Shown here: piece after piece, positions 56,248 to 63,908 of the stretch
How the letters are laid out: every line of letters begins with the position of its first letter
Numbering within the stretch: the first letter of the stretch is position 1
DNA from: a virus
Strand: one strand, 5' to 3'
Length of the DNA stretch: 64,000 bases
Virus record (IMG/VR): IMGVR_UViG_3300008111_000005
Location: 32,001-96,000 of that record
Made by a program: the position numbers and the translations under genes
The notes under the pieces: model-generated
Seen by the model: the letters and a program-made list of their open reading frames with translations, nothing else
Databases searched by the model: none
Told to the model about the DNA's origin: nothing

Positions 56248-57720
56248 TTATACCTTACGTTTAAAGAGTTGCGCCATATCGTCTTGACGATGGATTAATT
56301 TACCTTCCGGTTCCCATTCTTGGTCAAGACCAGTGACCTTCATAATATTATCAATCGAACCATACTGCTGTGTCCAATCACAGGTCAGATTAATTAACAA
56401 TAGGTCTGTCTTTTCATAAAGTTGCTTACGAACTTGTTCTGCTACTATCTTTGTTGTTTCCAACAATCGACCTGGCATTAGGAGAACCAGACTGTATGCT
56501 TTTTCATTCCACGTATGTAAGTCAAATATACTACCCATTGTAAAGATTCCCCAATGGATTGTTGTTGCTGCCGACATACAACGTTGCTTATCCATTTCCA
56601 CACCATGCGGAATTAAATCTTGTCTATCTCCCACCACACGACCTAACAAGACACCATTACCACACCCAAGGTCAAGCACATTTCCACTTGGAATATACTT
56701 CATATCTCCAACTGCATCAAGAATAACTTGATGGAAATGATCCATTGCACCCTTGTTACTAAATCCGTTCTCTTCCCAAACAGAAGTATCTTCCAACGAC
56801 TTAGCAAAGGATAGAGTCTTAGTAATAGGTTTAATTTTAGTTTTCTTTTGGTTATACGGATATGTAATACCCGACATACCATCTTCTGGATATGAATGAC
56901 TGAGCTTTTGTACCGTGTATTTCCACGGTGTCATATCTGTACGTGATGATATCTTATTGATTGGGGTACGAATTTCCGCGATGCCGTGCAACGCTGACCA
57001 TTCCACGGGCCACGAAAGAATTTCATAAATCCAATCAATTTCCTTATTATATCCAAGTGTACGACCAAGTTCTGCCATTTTCATACCAAGTTCTTCTGTT
57101 GCTTTACAATCAAATGAACATGGAAGATGTGAGACTAGTCGAATACCCTGCCACCGCCAAAGAATATTGGATTCTGGTGGAGTGTCTGCATTAATATGAA
57201 TAGTGTGATCGTTGTCGGTTAACGTCAGCTTATCAGCTGCCATTGTCCACGTAGAATCTACATATCCTTGGTTTACCCAATATTTGTTGAAATGTTCAAT
57301 ACAACATGTAGGGTATCCAAGTAATCTTCCCGCTTCACGGTCACGAATAGATGATGGGGAATTCCATATACTGAACCATTCTTCAGCCAATCGTTCTGAC
57401 TTTGTAAAAACAACTCGTATATTATAATCTCCACCAGCATATGGAATTGTAGTAGAGGAATATTGCCCAGTAATTCCTTCCTTTGCCAAGGCAACAATTT
57501 TTACACCATACTTACCATACTCTTCTTGCAACGACATCAATTCCGATGGACGGATGATATCTAGTGCAGATGGTCGAATGTCATGAACCACAGACATACG
57601 TTCTATATGTCTCCATGCACTGGAAATTGCCGAAATAATCGGTTCGTATTTATTTTTGTTTTCCATACTCGTCCACTGCACACGAGTCCAATCTGGTAAA
57701 ACGTGTTTAATTCTTTGCAT
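56248..57720 (-). CDS. DUF483-like Cys-motif domain fused to a class I SAM methyltransferase
   Basis: GRLLGYPTCCIEHF and HLPCSFDC; C-terminal VLDLGCGNG and GVEMD. Confidence 0.7.
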   Translation of the reverse strand: MQRIKHVLPDWTRVQWTSMENKNKYEPIISAISSAWRHIERMSVVHDIRPSALDIIRPSELMSLQEEYGKYGVKIVALAKEGITGQYSSTTIPYAGGDYNIRVVFTKSERLAEEWFSIWNSPSSIRDREAGRLLGYPTCCIEHFNKYWVNQGYVDSTWTMAADKLTLTDNDHTIHINADTPPESNILWRWQGIRLVSHLPCSFDCKATEELGMKMAELGRTLGYNKEIDWIYEILSWPVEWSALHGIAEIRTPINKISSRTDMTPWKYTVQKLSHSYPEDGMSGITYPYNQKKTKIKPITKTLSFAKSLEDTSVWEENGFSNKGAMDHFHQVILDAVGDMKYIPSGNVLDLGCGNGVLLGRVVGDRQDLIPHGVEMDKQRCMSAATTIHWGIFTMGSIFDLHTWNEKAYSLVLLMPGRLLETTKIVAEQVRKQLYEKTDLLLINLTCDWTQQYGSIDNIMKVTGLDQEWEPEGKLIHRQDDMAQLFKRKV

Positions 57721-57738: not shown

Positions 57739-58095
57739 TTAAATCTTCAGCTTACTTTTTTCTTCTGCAATAATCTGTTGCAAAAATGCCTTCCACGAAT
57801 TTCCAGCAGTAGCCTGTGCTGTGTCGGTATCCGTACTTACTACTCCAAACTTGGCTTCATACGCTTCACGATACCGACCAGTTTCATCAACGTGGTCTGC
57901 ATGTCCGTTTGTCATATCAAACTCTTCACCAACAATTGTTTGTGATGTAGTTACTACTGGTACGGATTCGGTATCTCGAAATTCTTCTGGAATTTCCTTT
58001 AATATTCCCTTTTCCAAAAGTTCTTTTACTACTTCGAACTTTTGAGCGTAAGCTCCCGATGAGTCTACATGGTCAGCATGTAATCCTTGAATCAT
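57739..58095 (-). CDS. Small acidic protein with two HADHVD motifs (rSAM partner or substrate candidate)
   Basis: LHADHVDSSGAYAQKF and GHADHVDETGRYREAYEAKFG; GAGG RBS. Confidence 0.75.
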   Translation of the reverse strand: MIQGLHADHVDSSGAYAQKFEVVKELLEKGILKEIPEEFRDTESVPVVTTSQTIVGEEFDMTNGHADHVDETGRYREAYEAKFGVVSTDTDTAQATAGNSWKAFLQQIIAEEKSKLKI

Positions 58096-58115
58096 TTGTT
58101 TATCCTCTACTATTA

Positions 58116-59429
58116 TTAAGGTAAAAATCCATATTGTTCGTTAAACTCTTTTGAATATCGTCCTGTTTCGTCTGTATGATCGGCGTGTGGTATTTTACCA
58201 CCGTTTTTCATTACGATTTTTTGTTGTTTGATAAACTTATCAATATCAAACTGTCCTTCCAAATATCGTTTAATCTGCGCCAATCGTAACTCAACACCTT
58301 GACTGTATCCGTACATCAATGCATCTTCGTATTTTTGTCTATCTGGATGTAGTGACAATGGTGTTTCTCCTTTATGCACCATTAACTTTTCAAATATACC
58401 GAATGCCACTTTCCAATTCAAGCAGGTGTCTGTACGATTTCTCCAATCCATATCAATACCTGTACCAGGACAATGTGCCTTACAAGTTAAGAAGAAACGA
58501 CATCCTTGACATCCACCGTGTTCCTGCGGTGTGTGGTATAACGCCATTTGACGTTCAAATCCATCATATTGGGCTTTAATCCAATTAATACCTTCTTTAT
58601 TTCCACGACCACAATTTGCTTGGTTTCCTTGTGAATCAATACCTTGCACTGCGTGGGTAGTATATGGGTCACACGATAAGAAGGTACATGTTGCATTATT
58701 ATCTTGTGCCTTTAACATATCTTCTACGTCACGGAAAATATCGAATCGAAATGACCGTTTACCAGGACCATTTAATTCATTAATTTCAAACTCCCACATA
58801 TCCAGTAAGAATTCAATATTTTGTTCTGGTGTTAACGCAAGTGATTCCCCAATTGAACTGTGGTCAATTTCTAACGGATGGAGGCGAGCGCCATCAACAC
58901 CCCACGATTGAAGTTCTTTTACCCATGCCTTAAATCGGTCACGGTATTTTGGAAGTCCATTCTTTTTGTGAACAGTGATAATTAAACCAAGAGAAATTTT
59001 ATTAGCTAATAGTTTCTTAATTGCTTCAAATGATTTACGAGTAGCTTCTCTGGTTTTTTCCAATGACCCCGCCCAACGAGTATCATTCATTTCATCGGGT
59101 CCGTCGAGGGACACACCAACGTGAACGTTATACTTCTTGAACATTTCAATGTGGCGGTCGGTGATTAAAACACCATTTGTTTGGATACCATTTGCTTTAT
59201 AGCGTTCGTATCCCCACTTAAAAATAGTTTCTAAATCGTCAATATCAGTTAATAATGGTTCACCACCAAATAGAGTAAAGTTACCACCCTCTTTGGCCAA
59301 ACCTTCTAACATTTTTTCAACAGAATATGTTTTTTGACGGAAGTTACCCGCGTCACGCATAGGATGTTCGTAACAATACGGACAACTTAAATTACATACT
59401 ACTCCAACTGGTTCCAATTCAATCGTCAT
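58116..59429 (-). CDS. Radical SAM enzyme with SPASM domain (anSME/peptide-maturase type)
   Basis: CNLSCPYC, FGGEPLL, IQTNG, VSLDG; SPASM cysteines CTFLSC...C...CQGC.....C...C...C. Confidence 0.92.
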   Translation of the reverse strand: MTIELEPVGVVCNLSCPYCYEHPMRDAGNFRQKTYSVEKMLEGLAKEGGNFTLFGGEPLLTDIDDLETIFKWGYERYKANGIQTNGVLITDRHIEMFKKYNVHVGVSLDGPDEMNDTRWAGSLEKTREATRKSFEAIKKLLANKISLGLIITVHKKNGLPKYRDRFKAWVKELQSWGVDGARLHPLEIDHSSIGESLALTPEQNIEFLLDMWEFEINELNGPGKRSFRFDIFRDVEDMLKAQDNNATCTFLSCDPYTTHAVQGIDSQGNQANCGRGNKEGINWIKAQYDGFERQMALYHTPQEHGGCQGCRFFLTCKAHCPGTGIDMDWRNRTDTCLNWKVAFGIFEKLMVHKGETPLSLHPDRQKYEDALMYGYSQGVELRLAQIKRYLEGQFDIDKFIKQQKIVMKNGGKIPHADHTDETGRYSKEFNEQYGFLP

Positions 59430-59493: not shown

Positions 59494-60264
59494 TTATGGA
59501 CCAACAAATACTGGTTGGTCACTATGTGGTGTGGTATTATCTGTATGAGCAGCGGGAGTAGTGTTATCGGTGTGTGCAGCCGGTGTGGTATTATCCGTAT
59601 GAGCAGCGGGAGTAGTGTTATCGGTGTGCGCAGCCGGTGTGGTATTATCCGTATGTGCTGCTGGAGTCGTATTGTCCGTATGTGCTGCATTGATAGTAGT
59701 ATTTGTGTGTGCCGCGGCAATGTCTGTGTGGCTGGTAGCAATGTCTGTGTGACTCGCTGGTGTGGTATTGTCCGTATGTGCTGCGTTGGTAGTATTATCC
59801 GTGTGTGATGCGTTAATAGTGGTATCAGTATGTGCTGCTGGCGTGGTGTTGTCGGTGTGTGCAATGTTAGTGTGGGATGTAGCAATATCAGTATGAGATG
59901 TTGCTATATTCGTGTGGGATGTTGCGATGTCGGTATGCGCAGCATTCGTAGTGTTGTCTGTATGTGATGCGTTAATAGTGGTGTTAGCAAACGCAATATT
60001 CGTGTGTGAATTTCCAGTGTAATTGTCTGTGTGCGCAGCTGCGATATTAGTATGCGATGCAGCAACATTGGAATGTGGTGTAGTGCTGTTACTAAACGCA
60101 ATATTACTGTGTGCAATATCGGAATGTGAAGATATTGTCGCAATATTACTATGCGCAATATCTGTATGTGCTGACGACGCAGCGGCATTACCGTGTGCGA
60201 TATTTGTATGTGATCCAGCCACATTGCTATGACCGCCGGGAGAATAACTATCGGAATGTGCCAT
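59494..60264 (-). CDS. [H/F]-x-[D/N] repeat protein B (256 aa, 33 motifs)
   Basis: Almost entirely HTDNTTPAA, HTDIATS and HTNIA units; AGGA RBS. Confidence 0.88.
   Translation of the reverse strand: MAHSDSYSPGGHSNVAGSHTNIAHGNAAASSAHTDIAHSNIATISSHSDIAHSNIAFSNSTTPHSNVAASHTNIAAAHTDNYTGNSHTNIAFANTTINASHTDNTTNAAHTDIATSHTNIATSHTDIATSHTNIAHTDNTTPAAHTDTTINASHTDNTTNAAHTDNTTPASHTDIATSHTDIAAAHTNTTINAAHTDNTTPAAHTDNTTPAAHTDNTTPAAHTDNTTPAAHTDNTTPAAHTDNTTPHSDQPVFVGP
59521..59690 (-). repeat. 27-nt coding tandem repeat (HTDNTTPAA, about 6 copies)
   Basis: Units differ at synonymous positions. Confidence 0.85.
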
Positions 60265-60281
60265 AAAATATTATTCCTGAA

Positions 60282-61442
60282 TTATGAGCAGAGTTCGTTG
60301 GTACCACCACATACTTGATAATTAGAACACGCTAGGTAATAAAAACAACCCGAACATGTAACCAAATTGATACCATCACATACACTAGTACCATCGGTGC
60401 AACAATAATTATTTGTATGAGAGGCATTTGCCGTACTGTCTTGGTGGGATATTGAAGTATTAGTGAATGCAATATTATTATGCGCAATATCAGAATGTGA
60501 AGATATCGCCGCAATATTACTATGTGCTATATCCGTATGTGCGGAAGAAGCTGCAATGTTACTATGCGCAATATTAGTATGTGCCGCAGCGATATTTGAA
60601 AAGTTTGTAGTACTATCCGTATGACCTATTGATGTATTCGTATGTGCTGCGTTGGTAGTACTATCCGTGTGTGCGATATTTGTATGTGAATTTGGTATAT
60701 AACTGTTTGTATGTGCAGCAGGTATTGTACTATCGGTATGCGGAATTGTGGTATTCGTGTGTGGTATTGTGGTGTTGGTATGTGGAACTGTGGTATTGAC
60801 GAACGCAATATTTGTGTGAGCTGCTGGTGTGGTATTGTCCGTATGTGCTGCATTGATAGTAGTATTTGTATGTGCTGCGTTGATAGTAGTATCTGTATGT
60901 GCTGCTGGTATCGTAGTATTTGTGTGAGGAATAGTGGTATTTGTGTGTGGAGTTGTATTATCTGTATGTGATGATGGTGTGGTGTTATCTGTATGTGCAG
61001 CAATCGTGGTATTGTCTGTGTGTGCAGCAATTGTTGTATTATCGGTGTGTGCAGCAATCGTGGTATTATCGGTGTGTGCTGCGTTGATAGTAATATCAGT
61101 ATGTGCTGCTGGAGTGGTGTTATCGGTGTGTGCCGCAGTTACGTCGGTGTGACCACGAATTTCACTACCTGTACCAGAAATCCAATGCCAAAAAGTACTT
61201 TCAACCCACACAGAACCAGCCTTTGCACCTGCCGCAGCACCTAAGTTTGTATATGCAATTGTACGGTCAACCCCTGTAGCGGAGATATAATGGAAATCAT
61301 TTCCATCTACCCACACCGATCCAGGTTTAGCTCCCGCTGGTGATGTACCGGCGGTACCAGTATAATAATATTCATTTCCCGAGCCGTCTATGAAACGAAA
61401 CGTTTCACCATCAACCCAGATACTACCAGGTGCCTTTGGCAT
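60282..61442 (-). CDS. [H/F]-x-[D/N] repeat protein A (386 aa, 33 motifs) with a 3x GSxWV N-domain and an 8-Cys C-terminal tip
   Basis: PGSIWVDG/PGSVWVDG/AGSVWVES repeats, HTD array, YCCTDGTSVC...ELCS. Confidence 0.88.
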   Translation of the reverse strand: MPKAPGSIWVDGETFRFIDGSGNEYYYTGTAGTSPAGAKPGSVWVDGNDFHYISATGVDRTIAYTNLGAAAGAKAGSVWVESTFWHWISGTGSEIRGHTDVTAAHTDNTTPAAHTDITINAAHTDNTTIAAHTDNTTIAAHTDNTTIAAHTDNTTPSSHTDNTTPHTNTTIPHTNTTIPAAHTDTTINAAHTNTTINAAHTDNTTPAAHTNIAFVNTTVPHTNTTIPHTNTTIPHTDSTIPAAHTNSYIPNSHTNIAHTDSTTNAAHTNTSIGHTDSTTNFSNIAAAHTNIAHSNIAASSAHTDIAHSNIAAISSHSDIAHNNIAFTNTSISHQDSTANASHTNNYCCTDGTSVCDGINLVTCSGCFYYLACSNYQVCGGTNELCS

Positions 61443-61485: not shown

Positions 61486-62349
61486 TTATACACAAGTAAA
61501 TGTTCCTAAACAACCAACTGGCCGTGCTGCACATACTACTGCGTAGACACTACTATTGGGATTTGTATAAAAATTTGACCCAGATGATGGACTACCATCG
61601 GCACAAGTTACATATCCTGCGGGACACGATGCATCCACACCACGAGTTCCTTGTGGACCTGTTGGTCCTTGTACACCAGTAATTCCCTGTACTCCAGCCG
61701 ACCCCGTGGATGCCGCTGGTGCAGAAATACCTGTAACTCCTACAACACCCGTTGCTCCTTGTGGTCCCGATGGTCCTGTTGCACCCGCTGTGGGTAATCC
61801 TACAACACCACCTACACCCGTAGCACCCACCACGTTTGTTAATCCCGATGGTCCTGTTTGTCCAATAATTCCTGTTATACCAAGAATTCCTTGAATACCT
61901 GTTGCACCTGTTGGTCCTGTTGCACCCGTTGCGCCTGTTGACCCAGACACTAGTGAACCGATACCTGTAGCACCCGTTGGTCCTGTAATACCAATAGACC
62001 CCGATGCTCCTGTTGGCCCTGTTGGTCCCGTAGACCCAGTAACACCAGTTGGTCCAATAACTCCTGTTGGCCCTGTTGGTCCTAGTGGTCCTGTTGGTCC
62101 AGTTGGACCTGAGGTAGTTAATCCCGTTACCCCAGATACTCCTGTTGGTCCAGTAGACCCAGACCCAGCTATACCTACCAAACCAATTGGACCTGTTGGA
62201 CCTCTATCACCTATAACTCCTGTTGCACCAGGTCCATATGATGCGGTTAATACATTTACTCCCGCAGCGTATGTTGCAGTAAATGCTAAATTACTATATA
62301 ATGCAACGCTTGCAGTAGTTGGTGTACCAAGTGGAAAAAATGTGGTCAT
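61486..62349 (-). CDS. Collagen-like fibre protein with Cys-rich C-terminus
   Basis: G-x-T triplets (GPT/GAT/GIT) with interruptions; 5 Cys in the last about 46 aa. Confidence 0.88.
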
Positions 62350-63908
62350 AGGAATGCGTTACTGTGAGCGGCAGCGACATTTGAATGTGCTGCGGTGATA
62401 TTGGAGAAATTGGTGGTATTGTCTGTATGTGCGGCGGTAATATCCGTGTGTGCTGCGGTTATATCCGTGTGTGCTGCTGCAATGTTACTATGTGCAATAT
62501 TTGTGTGTGCTGCTGCAACATTTGAAAATGCGATGTTACTGTGTGCGATATCAGTATGTGATGCGTTGGTAGTATTATCAGAATGTGATCCTGGTGTAGT
62601 ACTATCAGTAAATGGAATATCGGTATGTGACGACGGTGTAGTACTATTTACGAATGCCGCATCGGTATGCACACCTATTATATCACTGTGATCATTAAAT
62701 GGACTACATGGTGTACCAGATGGACAAGAAGAATATCCGAAATAAAATAAACATCCAGGCCCCGCATCACCATCTAAACAATAAACACCAGTCGCTGCAT
62801 CATCACCATGCCCGATTGTACTGTCCGAATGTGGTTGATCAGTATGTGAGGCCGGCGTGGTACTAGATATTGCCGCAATATTAGTATGTTCTGTGTTAAT
62901 AGTAGTATTTGTGTGTGCTGCGTTAATAGTACTGGAACTTCCCGCAATATTTCCGTGTGAAATATTTGAATGTGGTGTGGTACTAGTAATTCCAGCAATA
63001 TTGGTATGTGCTGTATAATTGTTTGTGTGTGGTATTGTGATATTTGTAAAGTTTGTAGTACTGTCGGTGTGTGCTGCAGTAATATTAGAATGTGGTGTAG
63101 TACTATCACTATGTGGGACCGTAATATCGGAATGTGTTTGATTACATGATCCCGTGACGAAAAATGCAGCTCTTCCCGCAGCACCTTGTGGTCCTGTTGG
63201 ACCGACTGGCCCAGAAGGACCGGTAATACCTGTAACACCAGCGGAACCGAAGGTATTAGGACCACTAATACCCTGTGAACCTGCTGCACCCGTTGCTCCT
63301 GTTGGTCCTACTGGTCCTGTTGCTCCAGCACTACCAGATGGACCGATTGGCCCCGTAGAACCAACTGGCCCCACACCTGTTGGTCCTGTACTACCTTGTG
63401 GTCCTGTTGGACCTGTTGAACCTGTTGGTCCAGTTGCTCCAGCAACACCCGCTACACCACCAAATATACCAACACTACCTGTTGGACCTGTTGCACCAAT
63501 TGCCCCTGTTGGACCTGTTATACCTCGACTACCTGTTGGTCCCGTAACACCGATTACACCAGTGCTACCAGTTGGACCTGTTGGACCCGTGGGGCCTGTA
63601 GATCCTGTGATGCCACTTGGTCCAGTTGGACCTGTTGACCCAGATGTTTGTGGTCCAGTTGATCCTGTGGGTCCAGTTATACCGATAGAGCCGGACACGC
63701 CAGTTGGACCTGTTGGACCTGTTGGCCCCGTTGCTCCTGTTGGTCCTAGTGGTCCTGATGGTCCTGTAAATCCACCTATAGCGAACGATGCAGTAGCATA
63801 TCCAGACCCACTATTTACCGCAACTGACGCTGTAAACGTCAGTACACTTGCAGATAATGCGAATGAACTAGTAGTTGGTGTTCCGTATGGGAAAAACTTA
63901 AACGTCAT
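62346..63908 (-). CDS. Collagen-like fibre protein with C-terminal H-x-[D/N] hairpin and Cys loop
   Basis: About 200 aa of G-x-T, then 13 His motifs, a 4-Cys loop and 13 His motifs. Confidence 0.88.

What the first reader, a model, noticed from the sequence alone, without database searches (positions are those of the whole stretch)
57739..58190. The rSAM carries its own substrate-like tail, repeated twice in the next gene
The enzyme ends ...IPHADHTDETGRYSKEFNEQYG. The downstream 118-aa protein contains LHADHVDSSGAYAQKF and GHADHVDETGRYREAYEAKFG. The shared H-A-D-H-[T/V]-D-x-x-G-x-Y motif is two back-to-back HxD units. It ties the enzyme to the HxD motif by sequence, not only by position. Possible roles: self-modification, autoinhibitory pseudo-substrate, docking or metal site, or the true short precursor.
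Basis: partly seen in the sequence, partly recalled or inferred. Interest (0 to 1): 0.8.

Follow-up and report, generated by a model that had tools for sequence, protein, structure and literature searches.

The report
Radical SAM enzyme with substrate-like tail
A phage enzyme that probably cross-links His-x-Asp triplets in tail-fibre proteins carries two such triplets on its own floppy tail, and the next small gene carries four more. The tail is kept across most of this undescribed enzyme family, so purifying the enzyme alone could reveal what chemistry it performs.

Summary
The radical SAM (rSAM) enzyme (58116-59429, minus strand) ends in ...IPHADHTDETGRYSKEFNEQYGFLP. The 118-aa ORF 20 nt downstream holds LHADHVDSSGAY and GHADHVDETGRY. 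HADHxD occurs nowhere else in six frames of the window or in the 105-kb virus record.

A profile built only from small-protein homologs finds the rSAM tail at E=6.7e-9. The three copies are about 55% identical in DNA, so they are old and kept by selection.

Of 167 distinct homologs, 125 have H-x-D triplets in the tail and 108 have the double unit P-H-[G/A]-D-H-[T/W/Y]-D, in 1 to 25 copies. The Thermus phages Cumys and phiLo are among them. At least four clades lost the tail yet keep HxD substrates.

Tail triplets follow the substrate grammar: 82% of tail His sit in H-x-D, and Glu and HH are excluded. They differ in detail: Gly at x, no Asn, spacing 3. One clade has an almost all-Phe fibre but keeps the His tail.

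The tail and the small protein are predicted disordered. Most likely the module enters the enzyme's own pocket as a cis or trans substrate, but this is untested. Metal chelation or docking is the main rival.

This scan noted the same tail earlier in another genome (e1-5791208).

The parts
58116..59429 (-). rSAM/SPASM enzyme, 437 aa. CxxxCxxC at C12/C16/C19; eight further invariant Cys (C248, C253, C273, C307, C310, C316, C320, C336).
   Evidence: Pfam PF04055 E=4e-16. Invariant columns. AF2 model mean pLDDT 77; best PDB matches are anSME 4K36-4K39 and the triceptide synthase ChlB 9GM3.
58128..58190 (-). C-terminal tail module of the rSAM, residues 414-434: P-HAD-HTD-ETGRY followed by a short predicted helix (424-433).
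   Evidence: pLDDT is under 50 over 413-426 and 432-437 and low throughout the tail. It is an island of 88-100% conservation inside a variable linker. It is hit by the small-protein module-2 profile at E=6.7e-9.
58107..58118 (-). Four consecutive in-frame stop codons (TAA TAA TAG TAG) ending the rSAM gene, followed by a Shine-Dalgarno-like AGAGGA and the small ORF's ATG.
   Evidence: Sequence read directly.
57739..58095 (-). 118-aa disordered protein: module 1, linker, module 2, linker, conserved C-terminal amphipathic helix.
   Evidence: 97 homolog clusters at 39-98% identity. Always 19-31 nt after the rSAM stop and before the DUF483 gene in 13 loci. AF2 pTM 0.24 with helices 15-28, 74-83 and 94-115. 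No Pfam, NCBIfam or PHROG hit.
58048..58080 (-). Module 1 core, HADHVDSSGAY (small ORF residues 6-16), at the extreme N-terminus.
   Evidence: L5, H6, A7, D8, H9, D11, G14 and Y16 are at least 90% conserved in 97 sequences.
57871..57903 (-). Module 2 core, HADHVDETGRY (small ORF residues 65-75). This is the copy closest to the rSAM tail.
   Evidence: H65, A66, D67, H68, D70, T72, G73 and Y75 are at least 90% conserved. Absent from three short variants, P0218-P0220.
57742..57816 (-). C-terminal helix ...NSWKAFLQQIIAEEKSKLKI (residues 94-118). It is the most conserved part of the small protein and is not found in any other protein.
   Evidence: Invariant W101, K102, F104, L105, I109, E111-K113, K115 and L116 in 24 sequences. 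The profile hits only small-protein homologs.
56248..57720 (-). DUF483-like Cys-motif domain fused to a class I methyltransferase, 490 aa. Third conserved member of the module.
   Evidence: PF04467 E=1.2e-5, with weaker MetW/MTS matches below Pfam's cutoffs. Present next to the rSAM in nearly all loci. Natural rSAM-DUF483 fusions exist: P0125 and L007.
59494..60264 (-). 256-aa H-x-D/N array protein (31 triplets), presumed substrate.
60282..61442 (-). 386-aa H-x-D/N array protein (30 triplets) with an N-terminal triple GSxWVxG...Y.D domain, presumed substrate.
62346..63908 (-). 520-aa collagen-like tail fibre with 26 H-x-D/N triplets, presumed substrate.
   Evidence: PF01391. PHROG tail-fibre families. 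Triplet count.

Best explanation
SHOWN. The rSAM/SPASM enzymes of this phage fibre module carry, after the SPASM domain, a flexible C-terminal arm made of the same H-x-D triplets as their presumed substrates. The core element is the double unit P-H-[G/A]-D-H-[T/V/W/Y]-D. In the window's clade the arm is reduced to one double unit plus a short helix. A separate 118-aa disordered protein, encoded directly downstream, supplies two more copies plus an invariant C-terminal helix.

INFERRED.
1. A floppy enzyme tail and a folded fibre ladder have only one thing in common: the enzyme. The shared triplet grammar therefore most likely reflects fit to the enzyme's catalytic pocket.
2. The arm would then fold back, or reach into a neighbouring enzyme molecule, and occupy the pocket as a built-in substrate.
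3. It is probably cross-linked there: His ring to Asp C-beta, minus 2 Da per triplet, giving two fused three-residue rings per double unit.
4. The small protein would be a free-standing substrate of the same kind, brought to the enzyme or to its DUF483 partner by its C-terminal helix.

This layout parallels the fused and split precursors of borosins. Its purpose (placeholder, primer or a separate product) is not known.
For: Conservation:
- 125 of 167 distinct homologs have tail triplets and 108 have the double unit. Triplet density is 67-fold higher in the tail than in the core.
- The tail occurs in all major clades of the tree, including Thermus phages Cumys and phiLo.
- In the window's clade the motif is as conserved as the catalytic core (0.87 against 0.86), while the linker is at 0.59.

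Same grammar as the substrates:
- 82% of 725 tail His sit in H-x-D, against 9.7% expected from composition.
- There are only 11 H-x-E although Glu is abundant, and only 6 HH.
- In 68 substrate proteins 78% of His are followed by x-D, 15% by x-N and 0.2% by x-E.
- Generic His-rich metal tails do not follow such a rule.

Enzyme type:
- The closest solved structures are anSME and the triceptide synthase ChlB.
- Characterised relatives cross-link His-C2 to C-beta of the third residue on HAA, HNR and HTK motifs and also accept Phe (PMC11499958). This matches the His/Phe interchange seen in the fibres.

Accessibility and architecture:
- The tail and the small protein are predicted disordered and therefore accessible.
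- The small protein has the look of a precursor peptide: short, disordered, next to the enzyme, with conserved motifs and a conserved helix.
- Precedent for a core peptide fused to the C-terminus of its modifying enzyme, and for split versions, comes from the borosins (PMC7878506; bioRxiv 10.1101/2021.12.24.474128).
- Long-tailed members carry 10-12 regularly spaced IPHGDHTD units, like multi-core precursors.
Against: - There is no experimental evidence for any modification in this family.
- AF2 gives the tail no docked position; pLDDT is below 50. No complex prediction could be run.
- The tail differs from the substrates in detail. Gly is at x in 53% of tail triplets against 10% in substrates. 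Asn at the third position occurs 3 times in 253 against 15%. Spacing 3 dominates, against 5, 4, 7 and 9.
- The L107 clade has a fibre with about 100 F-x-N/Q/S triplets and only 3 His, yet keeps HLDHSD in the tail. The tail therefore does not track the substrate.
- At least four clades lost the tail and still have HxD substrates, so the tail is not needed for the core reaction.
- No core residue co-varies cleanly with tail loss.
- A tethered substrate should compete with the real one, which is an unexplained cost.
Confidence: 0.4

Rival explanations
1. Metal-chelating or docking arm that works outside the catalytic pocket. Each H-x-D-H-x-D unit would bind a divalent metal (Fe, Zn, Ni or Mn). 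Alternatively it would pair with H-x-D rungs of the fibre array, tethering the enzyme to long arrays or handling metal for the fibre. The small protein would act as a trans adapter through its C-terminal helix.
For: - Asp only, never Asn, at the third position (250 of 253), Gly at x, and spacing 3-5. All favour chelation.
- The tail is kept in the L107 clade, whose fibre is almost all Phe. That fibre still begins and ends with an H-x-D triplet.
- Loci with tailless enzymes have fewer substrate triplets: median 12 against 47.5, Mann-Whitney p=0.0009, not corrected for phylogeny.
- In T4 gp37, fibre histidines (H929, H931) bind iron and dedicated chaperones are needed (PMC6957217).
Against: - The grammar is strictly H-x-D. 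Glu is excluded (11 H-x-E against 591 H-x-D) and HH is almost absent, unlike generic His-rich metal tails.
- The number of tail units does not correlate with the number of substrate triplets (rho=-0.06).
- Tailless enzymes also sit next to long arrays: L006 with 53 and L108 with 62 triplets.
- An all-Phe fibre needs no metal, yet its enzyme keeps the tail.
Confidence: 0.3
2. Autoinhibitory pseudo-substrate. The arm plugs the pocket without being turned over. This would protect the clusters and limit uncoupled SAM cleavage until the fibre displaces it.
For: The grammar is the same as in the substrates. The arm is disordered and tethered. The distinct features (Gly at x, back-to-back units) could make it bind without reacting.
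Against: One unit would be enough, yet tails reach 25 units. A separate small protein carrying two more copies is an odd way to inhibit in cis. The tail was lost repeatedly without loss of the system.
Confidence: 0.12
3. The small protein is a fibre-assembly chaperone or nucleator. It lies downstream of the fibre genes, roughly where phages often encode tail-fibre chaperones, though here it comes after the rSAM gene rather than directly after a fibre gene. Its HADHxD arms would mimic rungs to register the ladder. The enzyme tail would be a related handle for the same complex.
For: - Its position is downstream of four fibre genes.
- It is disordered and has a possible oligomerising C-terminal helix.
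- T4 gp37 needs the chaperones gp38 and gp57A (PMC6957217).
Against: - No similarity to any PHROG chaperone family.
- The small protein exists in only one clade, whereas tails are family-wide.
- It is always placed after the rSAM gene, not after a fibre gene.
Confidence: 0.1
4. Chance or neutral low-complexity leftover with no function.
For: The tail is dispensable in several clades. Its length is very variable.
Against: - Conservation of individual residues is as high as in the catalytic core.
- Synonymous divergence among the three copies is near saturation.
- Triplets are 67-fold enriched in the tail over the core.
- Profile E=6.7e-9.
Confidence: 0.03

Closest known systems
Phage 'rSAM module' of Thermus phages Cumys, phiMa and phiLo (bioRxiv 10.1101/2024.08.14.607894)
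   Same: The rSAM is 46-48% identical to the window enzyme. It sits next to a DUF483 protein and, in Cumys (tail/baseplate region), an HxD-array protein. Their rSAMs also end in HxD tails, for example ...HGDYTDHGDAPHGDHWDG.
   Different: The paper guessed a role in DNA modification and does not mention histidine. These phages have no small HADHxD protein. Their tails have 4-9 units instead of one double unit.
Triceptide (three-residue cyclophane) synthases: HaaB, YhhB, HtkB, ChlB (PMC11499958; PDB 9GM3)
   Same: They are rSAM/SPASM enzymes and the ChlB fold is among the best matches. They cross-link an aromatic residue to C-beta of the third residue in aromatic-x-x motifs, including His motifs, and tolerate His-to-Phe swaps.
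   Different: All NCBIfam scores are far below the curated cutoffs, for example YhhB 68 against 445. The substrates here are whole virion proteins with 26-31 triplets each in this window (up to 97 in related loci). None of the literature searched here describes a tail on those enzymes that carries the motif.
Borosins: fused (OphMA type) and split precursor architectures (PMC7878506; bioRxiv 10.1101/2021.12.24.474128)
   Same: The core peptide sits at the C-terminus of its own modifying enzyme and is modified autocatalytically. Split versions with a separate precursor also exist. This matches 'tail plus small protein'.
   Different: The borosin enzyme is an alpha-N-methyltransferase, not an rSAM. 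Self-modification here is only inferred. The main substrates here are other proteins.
HXS anti-phage system (HxsA-D; PMC13128918)
   Same: An rSAM-matured protein with His-x-small-residue repeats. The modification maps to a His/Ser motif.
   Different: It is a host defence system with two rSAM enzymes and HxsD. The repeats are HxS rather than HxD. It has no DUF483 partner, and no substrate-like enzyme tail is reported.
T4 gp37 needle with iron-binding histidines and its chaperones gp38/gp57A (PMC6957217)
   Same: It is a phage fibre in which regularly spaced His residues face the trimer axis and bind metal, and in which helper proteins are needed.
   Different: The motif is HxH, not HxD. No rSAM is involved. 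No sequence similarity was found or tested beyond the PHROG scans.

Membership tests
rSAM/SPASM peptide or protein maturases | CxxxCxxC cluster motif and radical SAM core | tested here: met
   C12, C16 and C19 are invariant. PF04055 E=4.3e-16, above the cutoff.
rSAM/SPASM peptide or protein maturases | SPASM Cys pattern (C-x2-C-x5-C-x3-C plus upstream and downstream Cys) for two auxiliary clusters | tested here: met
   C307, C310, C316 and C320, plus C248, C253, C273 and C336, are all invariant in 28 sequences. Full-length fold match to anSME 4K36-4K39.
Named triceptide/cyclophane synthase families (YhhB, AmcB, GrrM/OscB, XyeB, FxsB) | Score above the curated NCBIfam cutoff | tested here: not met
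   YhhB 68 against 445, AmcB 64 against 425, GrrM 55 against 310, XyeB 39 against 450. Only the N-terminal core aligns.
Named triceptide/cyclophane synthase families (YhhB, AmcB, GrrM/OscB, XyeB, FxsB) | Substrate with aromatic-x-x motifs next to the enzyme | tested here: met
   87 H-x-D/N triplets in three neighbouring proteins. A Phe version exists in L107.
Named triceptide/cyclophane synthase families (YhhB, AmcB, GrrM/OscB, XyeB, FxsB) | Cross-link of minus 2 Da between the aromatic ring and C-beta of the third residue | not testable with these tools
   Needs mass spectrometry and NMR.
Phage rSAM module (HxD-array protein + rSAM + DUF483) | All three genes adjacent, with the rSAM orthologous to Cumys_12 | tested here: met
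   46-48% identity to the Thermus phage enzymes. The trio recurs in about 60 loci.
Borosin-like enzyme-substrate fusion | Substrate-type motif at the C-terminus of the modifying enzyme | tested here: met
   Tail triplets follow the substrate grammar. This is family-wide.
Borosin-like enzyme-substrate fusion | Autocatalytic modification of the fused peptide | not testable with these tools
   Needs the intact mass of active enzyme.
Borosin-like enzyme-substrate fusion | The enzyme is an alpha-N-methyltransferase | tested here: not met
   The enzyme is an rSAM. The resemblance is architectural only.
HXS system (HxsA-D) | Two rSAM enzymes plus HxsD and an HxS-repeat effector | tested here: not met
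   There is one rSAM, a DUF483 partner and HxD/N repeats. No Hxs model appears among the 25 best NCBIfam hits.
Generic His-rich metal-binding tails (HypB, UreE, SlyD or ZnuA-loop type; recalled from general knowledge) | Irregular clusters of His with Asp/Glu, including HH and HxH runs | tested here: not met
   82% of tail His are in H-x-D. There are only 6 HH and 11 H-x-E in 8,497 tail residues.
Generic His-rich metal-binding tails (HypB, UreE, SlyD or ZnuA-loop type; recalled from general knowledge) | Measured metal binding | not testable with these tools
   Needs ITC or ICP-MS.

The most novel reading that the evidence does not exclude
The enzyme modifies itself and thereby reports its own chemistry. 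It would cross-link the two back-to-back triplets of its own tail into a fused bicyclic His-Asp knot. It would do the same to the 118-aa protein, which would then be a phage-encoded precursor-like protein with a role of its own, for example a metal-binding cap or a nucleator for the fibre ladder. This would be the first rSAM maturase with both a fused and a split built-in substrate.
Probability: 0.25. Interest if true: 0.8.

Novelty: new variant of a known kind. Interest (0 to 1): 0.62.

Why it matters
The phage module of an HxD-array fibre, an rSAM and a DUF483 protein is widespread and has no biochemistry. The only paper I found guessed DNA modification. The fibres are large, repetitive and hard to analyse.

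If the enzyme's pocket acts on its own tail, a much simpler experiment becomes possible. Expressing the enzyme alone, or with the 118-aa protein, and weighing one short C-terminal peptide would reveal the reaction of the whole family.

A conserved substrate-type arm on an rSAM/SPASM maturase would also be a new way for such enzymes to handle leaderless, highly repetitive protein substrates. If instead the arm binds metal or docks on the ladder, it points to how the fibre arrays are assembled. In either case the tail and the small protein are the most tractable way into this system.

Tried and rejected
I took neighbourhoods from the search for related loci instead.

2. AF2 of the full enzyme gave no docked tail; pLDDT was below 50. 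No coordinates or complex prediction were available, so tail-in-pocket could not be tested.

3. AF2 and the ESM Atlas show the small protein has no fold. The structural neighbours returned were meaningless.

4. I looked for fused forms of the rSAM with the small protein and found none. This is weak evidence.

5. I looked for small HxDHxD proteins in other clades and found none. The hits were only substrate fragments.

6. I looked for core residues that track tail loss across four tailless clades. Only W339 (3 of 5 clades) and two Asp-to-Glu changes came up, so there is no clear binding patch.

7. I considered an open iron site on an auxiliary cluster that the tail might ligate. I rejected it because all eight SPASM Cys are present, as in anSME.

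8. I tested whether tail copy number scales with substrate size. It does not.

9. I tested whether the x residue of the tail copies that of the local substrate. It does not: tails use Gly, substrates use Thr or Ser.

10. The tail peptide has no match among PDB sequences.

11. Literature searches for a described phage fibre rSAM system found only the Thermus phage preprint.

Full report
**The locus**

The window lies in a 104,871-bp virus record that CheckV rates about 55% complete. On the minus strand, 63908-56248 forms a tight operon:
- a 520-aa collagen-like tail fibre with H-x-D/N triplets;
- a 287-aa collagen-like protein;
- a 386-aa H-x-D/N array protein;
- a 256-aa H-x-D/N array protein;
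- a 437-aa rSAM/SPASM enzyme;
- a 118-aa ORF;
- a 490-aa DUF483-plus-methyltransferase protein.

The rSAM gene ends with four in-frame stop codons. The small ORF starts 20 nt later behind an AGAGGA site, and the DUF483 gene starts 18 nt after the small ORF.

**The observation**

The enzyme ends ...IPHADHTDETGRYSKEFNEQYGFLP. The small protein begins MIQGLHADHVDSSGAY... and has GHADHVDETGRYREAYEAKFG at residues 64-84.
- HADHxD occurs only at these three places in six frames of the window.
- Its coding pattern occurs only three times in the whole virus record.
- A profile built from module 2 of the small-protein family, with no rSAM sequence in it, finds the rSAM tail at E=6.7e-9 in 20,074 ORFs. 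It also finds the tails of all close homologs.
- The copies share only 34-41 of 72 nucleotides, so they are old and held by selection on the peptide.

**Conservation in the close clade**

In 34 enzymes of 73-100% identity, P414, H415, D417, H418, D420, T422, G423 and G434 are 94-100% conserved. The preceding linker is mostly 15-45% conserved.

The small protein has 97 homolog clusters. In every locus of this clade it lies 19-31 nt after the rSAM stop. Its near-invariant parts are module 1 at the extreme N-terminus, module 2, and above all the C-terminal helix ...SWKSFLQxIIAEEKSKL.

A search of 1.84 billion representative proteins found only 13 relatives. These include distant ones with LHGDHVDDTGRY, which link the HADH and HGDH forms of the motif. 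No fused longer form was found.

**Conservation in the family**

I collected 167 distinct enzymes from protein hits and from about 70 viral and genomic loci.
- 125 have H-x-D triplets after the conserved core and 108 have the back-to-back unit.
- Triplet density is 6.0 per 100 aa in tails against 0.089 in cores.
- The consensus is P-H-[G/A]-D-H-[T/W/Y]-D.
- Thermus phages Cumys (...HGDYTDHGDAPHGDHWDG) and phiLo have such tails.
- Some enzymes of 556-673 aa carry 7-11 back-to-back units, many written IPHGDHTD.
- On a tree of the cores the tail occurs in all major clades and at least four losses are forced.
- Tailless enzymes still sit beside HxD-array proteins and DUF483. The arm is therefore an accessory, not part of the minimal system.

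**Same grammar, different details**

In tails, 82% of 725 His are in H-x-D, against 9.7% expected. H-x-E occurs 11 times although Glu is common, and HH occurs 6 times. In 68 substrate proteins, 78% of His are followed by x-D, 15% by x-N and 0.2% by x-E. A generic His-rich metal tail would not obey this rule.

The tails nevertheless differ in detail:
- Gly at x in 53% of triplets, against 10% in substrates;
- Asn at the third position in 3 of 253 triplets, against 15% in substrates;
- spacing 3, against 5, 4, 7 and 9 in substrates.

In locus L107 the fibre homolog has about 100 F-x-N/Q/S triplets and only 3 His, yet its enzyme keeps ...NHLDHSDSNG. The arm is therefore substrate-like but not a copy of the local substrate.

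**Structure**

AF2 models the enzyme well (mean pLDDT 77), but the tail is low-confidence, under 50 over most of its length. The best solved matches are anSME and the triceptide synthase ChlB.

The small protein has no fold (pTM 0.24; Atlas pLDDT 0.40). It has three predicted helices, one after each motif and one at the C-terminus. The unit is thus a short linear motif followed by a helix, which is typical of a peptide that folds on binding.

**Mechanism**

Characterised relatives cross-link His-C2 to C-beta of the third residue on HAA, HNR and HTK motifs and also accept Phe (PMC11499958). This fits the His/Phe interchange in the fibres.

The only thing a disordered enzyme tail and a fibre ladder share is the enzyme. 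I therefore read the shared grammar as fit to the catalytic pocket. On this reading the arm is a built-in substrate, probably cross-linked, and the small protein is a free substrate with a docking helix. This is analogous to fused and split borosins. I put this at about 0.4.

The main rival, at about 0.3, is a chelating or docking arm that works outside the pocket. In its favour:
- the Asp-only rule and the spacing of 3;
- retention of the tail with a Phe fibre;
- fewer substrate triplets in loci with tailless enzymes (median 12 against 47.5, p=0.0009, not corrected for phylogeny).

Against it:
- the exclusion of Glu;
- no correlation between tail copy number and substrate size;
- tailless enzymes that sit beside long arrays.

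A pure pseudo-substrate plug, a fibre-chaperone role for the small protein, and chance are less likely.

**Novelty**

The Thermus phage preprint described the three-gene module and guessed DNA modification. It does not mention histidine. No other paper on a phage fibre rSAM system was found.

Within this scan the same idea was noted earlier in another genome (e1-5791208). What is new here:
- the reduced module-plus-helix form of the tail;
- the separate small gene carrying two further copies;
- the profile-level proof of homology;
- the grammar comparison between tails and substrates;
- the Phe-fibre counter-example;
- the loss pattern on the tree.

Noticed in passing
L107:8196-9986 (+): This fibre homolog has the usual N-terminal GSxWVxG triple domain and the usual ...TPHVDQPVYVGP end. 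Its array, however, consists of about 100 Phe-x-Asn/Gln/Ser triplets with only 3 His in 596 aa. An H-x-D triplet is kept at the start and at the end of the array. The rSAM and DUF483 genes are still present.
   Followed up: partly
L136:9998-11941, L144:103-2124, L124:10001-11725, L128:10001-11671: These rSAM enzymes of 556-673 aa have tails holding 14-25 H-x-D triplets, many as regularly spaced IPHGDHTD units. Three of the four (L124, L128, L144) end in a conserved ...G-K-[KR]-[IVL]-V-L-W.
   Followed up: partly
window 58107-58118 (-): Four consecutive in-frame stop codons (TAA TAA TAG TAG) end the rSAM gene, just before the ribosome-binding site of the small ORF.
   Followed up: no
P0125 (694 aa) and L007:6-1781: These are natural fusions of the rSAM enzyme with the DUF483 domain. 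The P0125 linker contains no HxD triplets.
   Followed up: partly
L142:10001-15545: One viral locus carries two rSAM genes, two DUF483 genes and an H-x-N array protein (HSNY... repeats), that is, a duplicated module. Neither rSAM has a tail.
   Followed up: no
window 59494-59530 (-) and the C-terminal ends of array proteins in L001, L102, L107, L109: Array proteins across the family end in a shared motif, H-x-D-Q-P-V-[F/Y]-V-G-P or a near variant. Most also start with three GSxW[V/I]xG...Y.D repeats. Either could be the element that the enzyme or DUF483 recognises.
   Followed up: no
L102:8054-9621 and L109:9372-10004: In the tailless clade with gene order array, DUF483, rSAM, one or two extra genes of unknown function (about 210 and 310 aa) lie between DUF483 and the rSAM.
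   Followed up: no
L008:12829-13302: In an actinobacterial MAG the HxD protein is a 157-aa protein with a twin-arginine-like signal (RRQILRAG...). Its rSAM also has a short HGDIPHGD tail, so the tail is not confined to phage fibre contexts.
   Followed up: no
window rSAM residue W339 (about 58413-58415): W339, three residues after the last SPASM Cys, is 81% conserved in tailed enzymes. It is replaced by Y, Q or L in three of five tailless clades. This is a weak lead to a tail contact site.
   Followed up: partly
P0222 (98 aa): A database protein shares the first 23 residues of the small protein (MIQGLHADHVDSSGAYAQKFEVV) and then continues as an unrelated sequence with a Pfam PF17236 hit. It is probably an assembly or frameshift chimera.
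   Followed up: no
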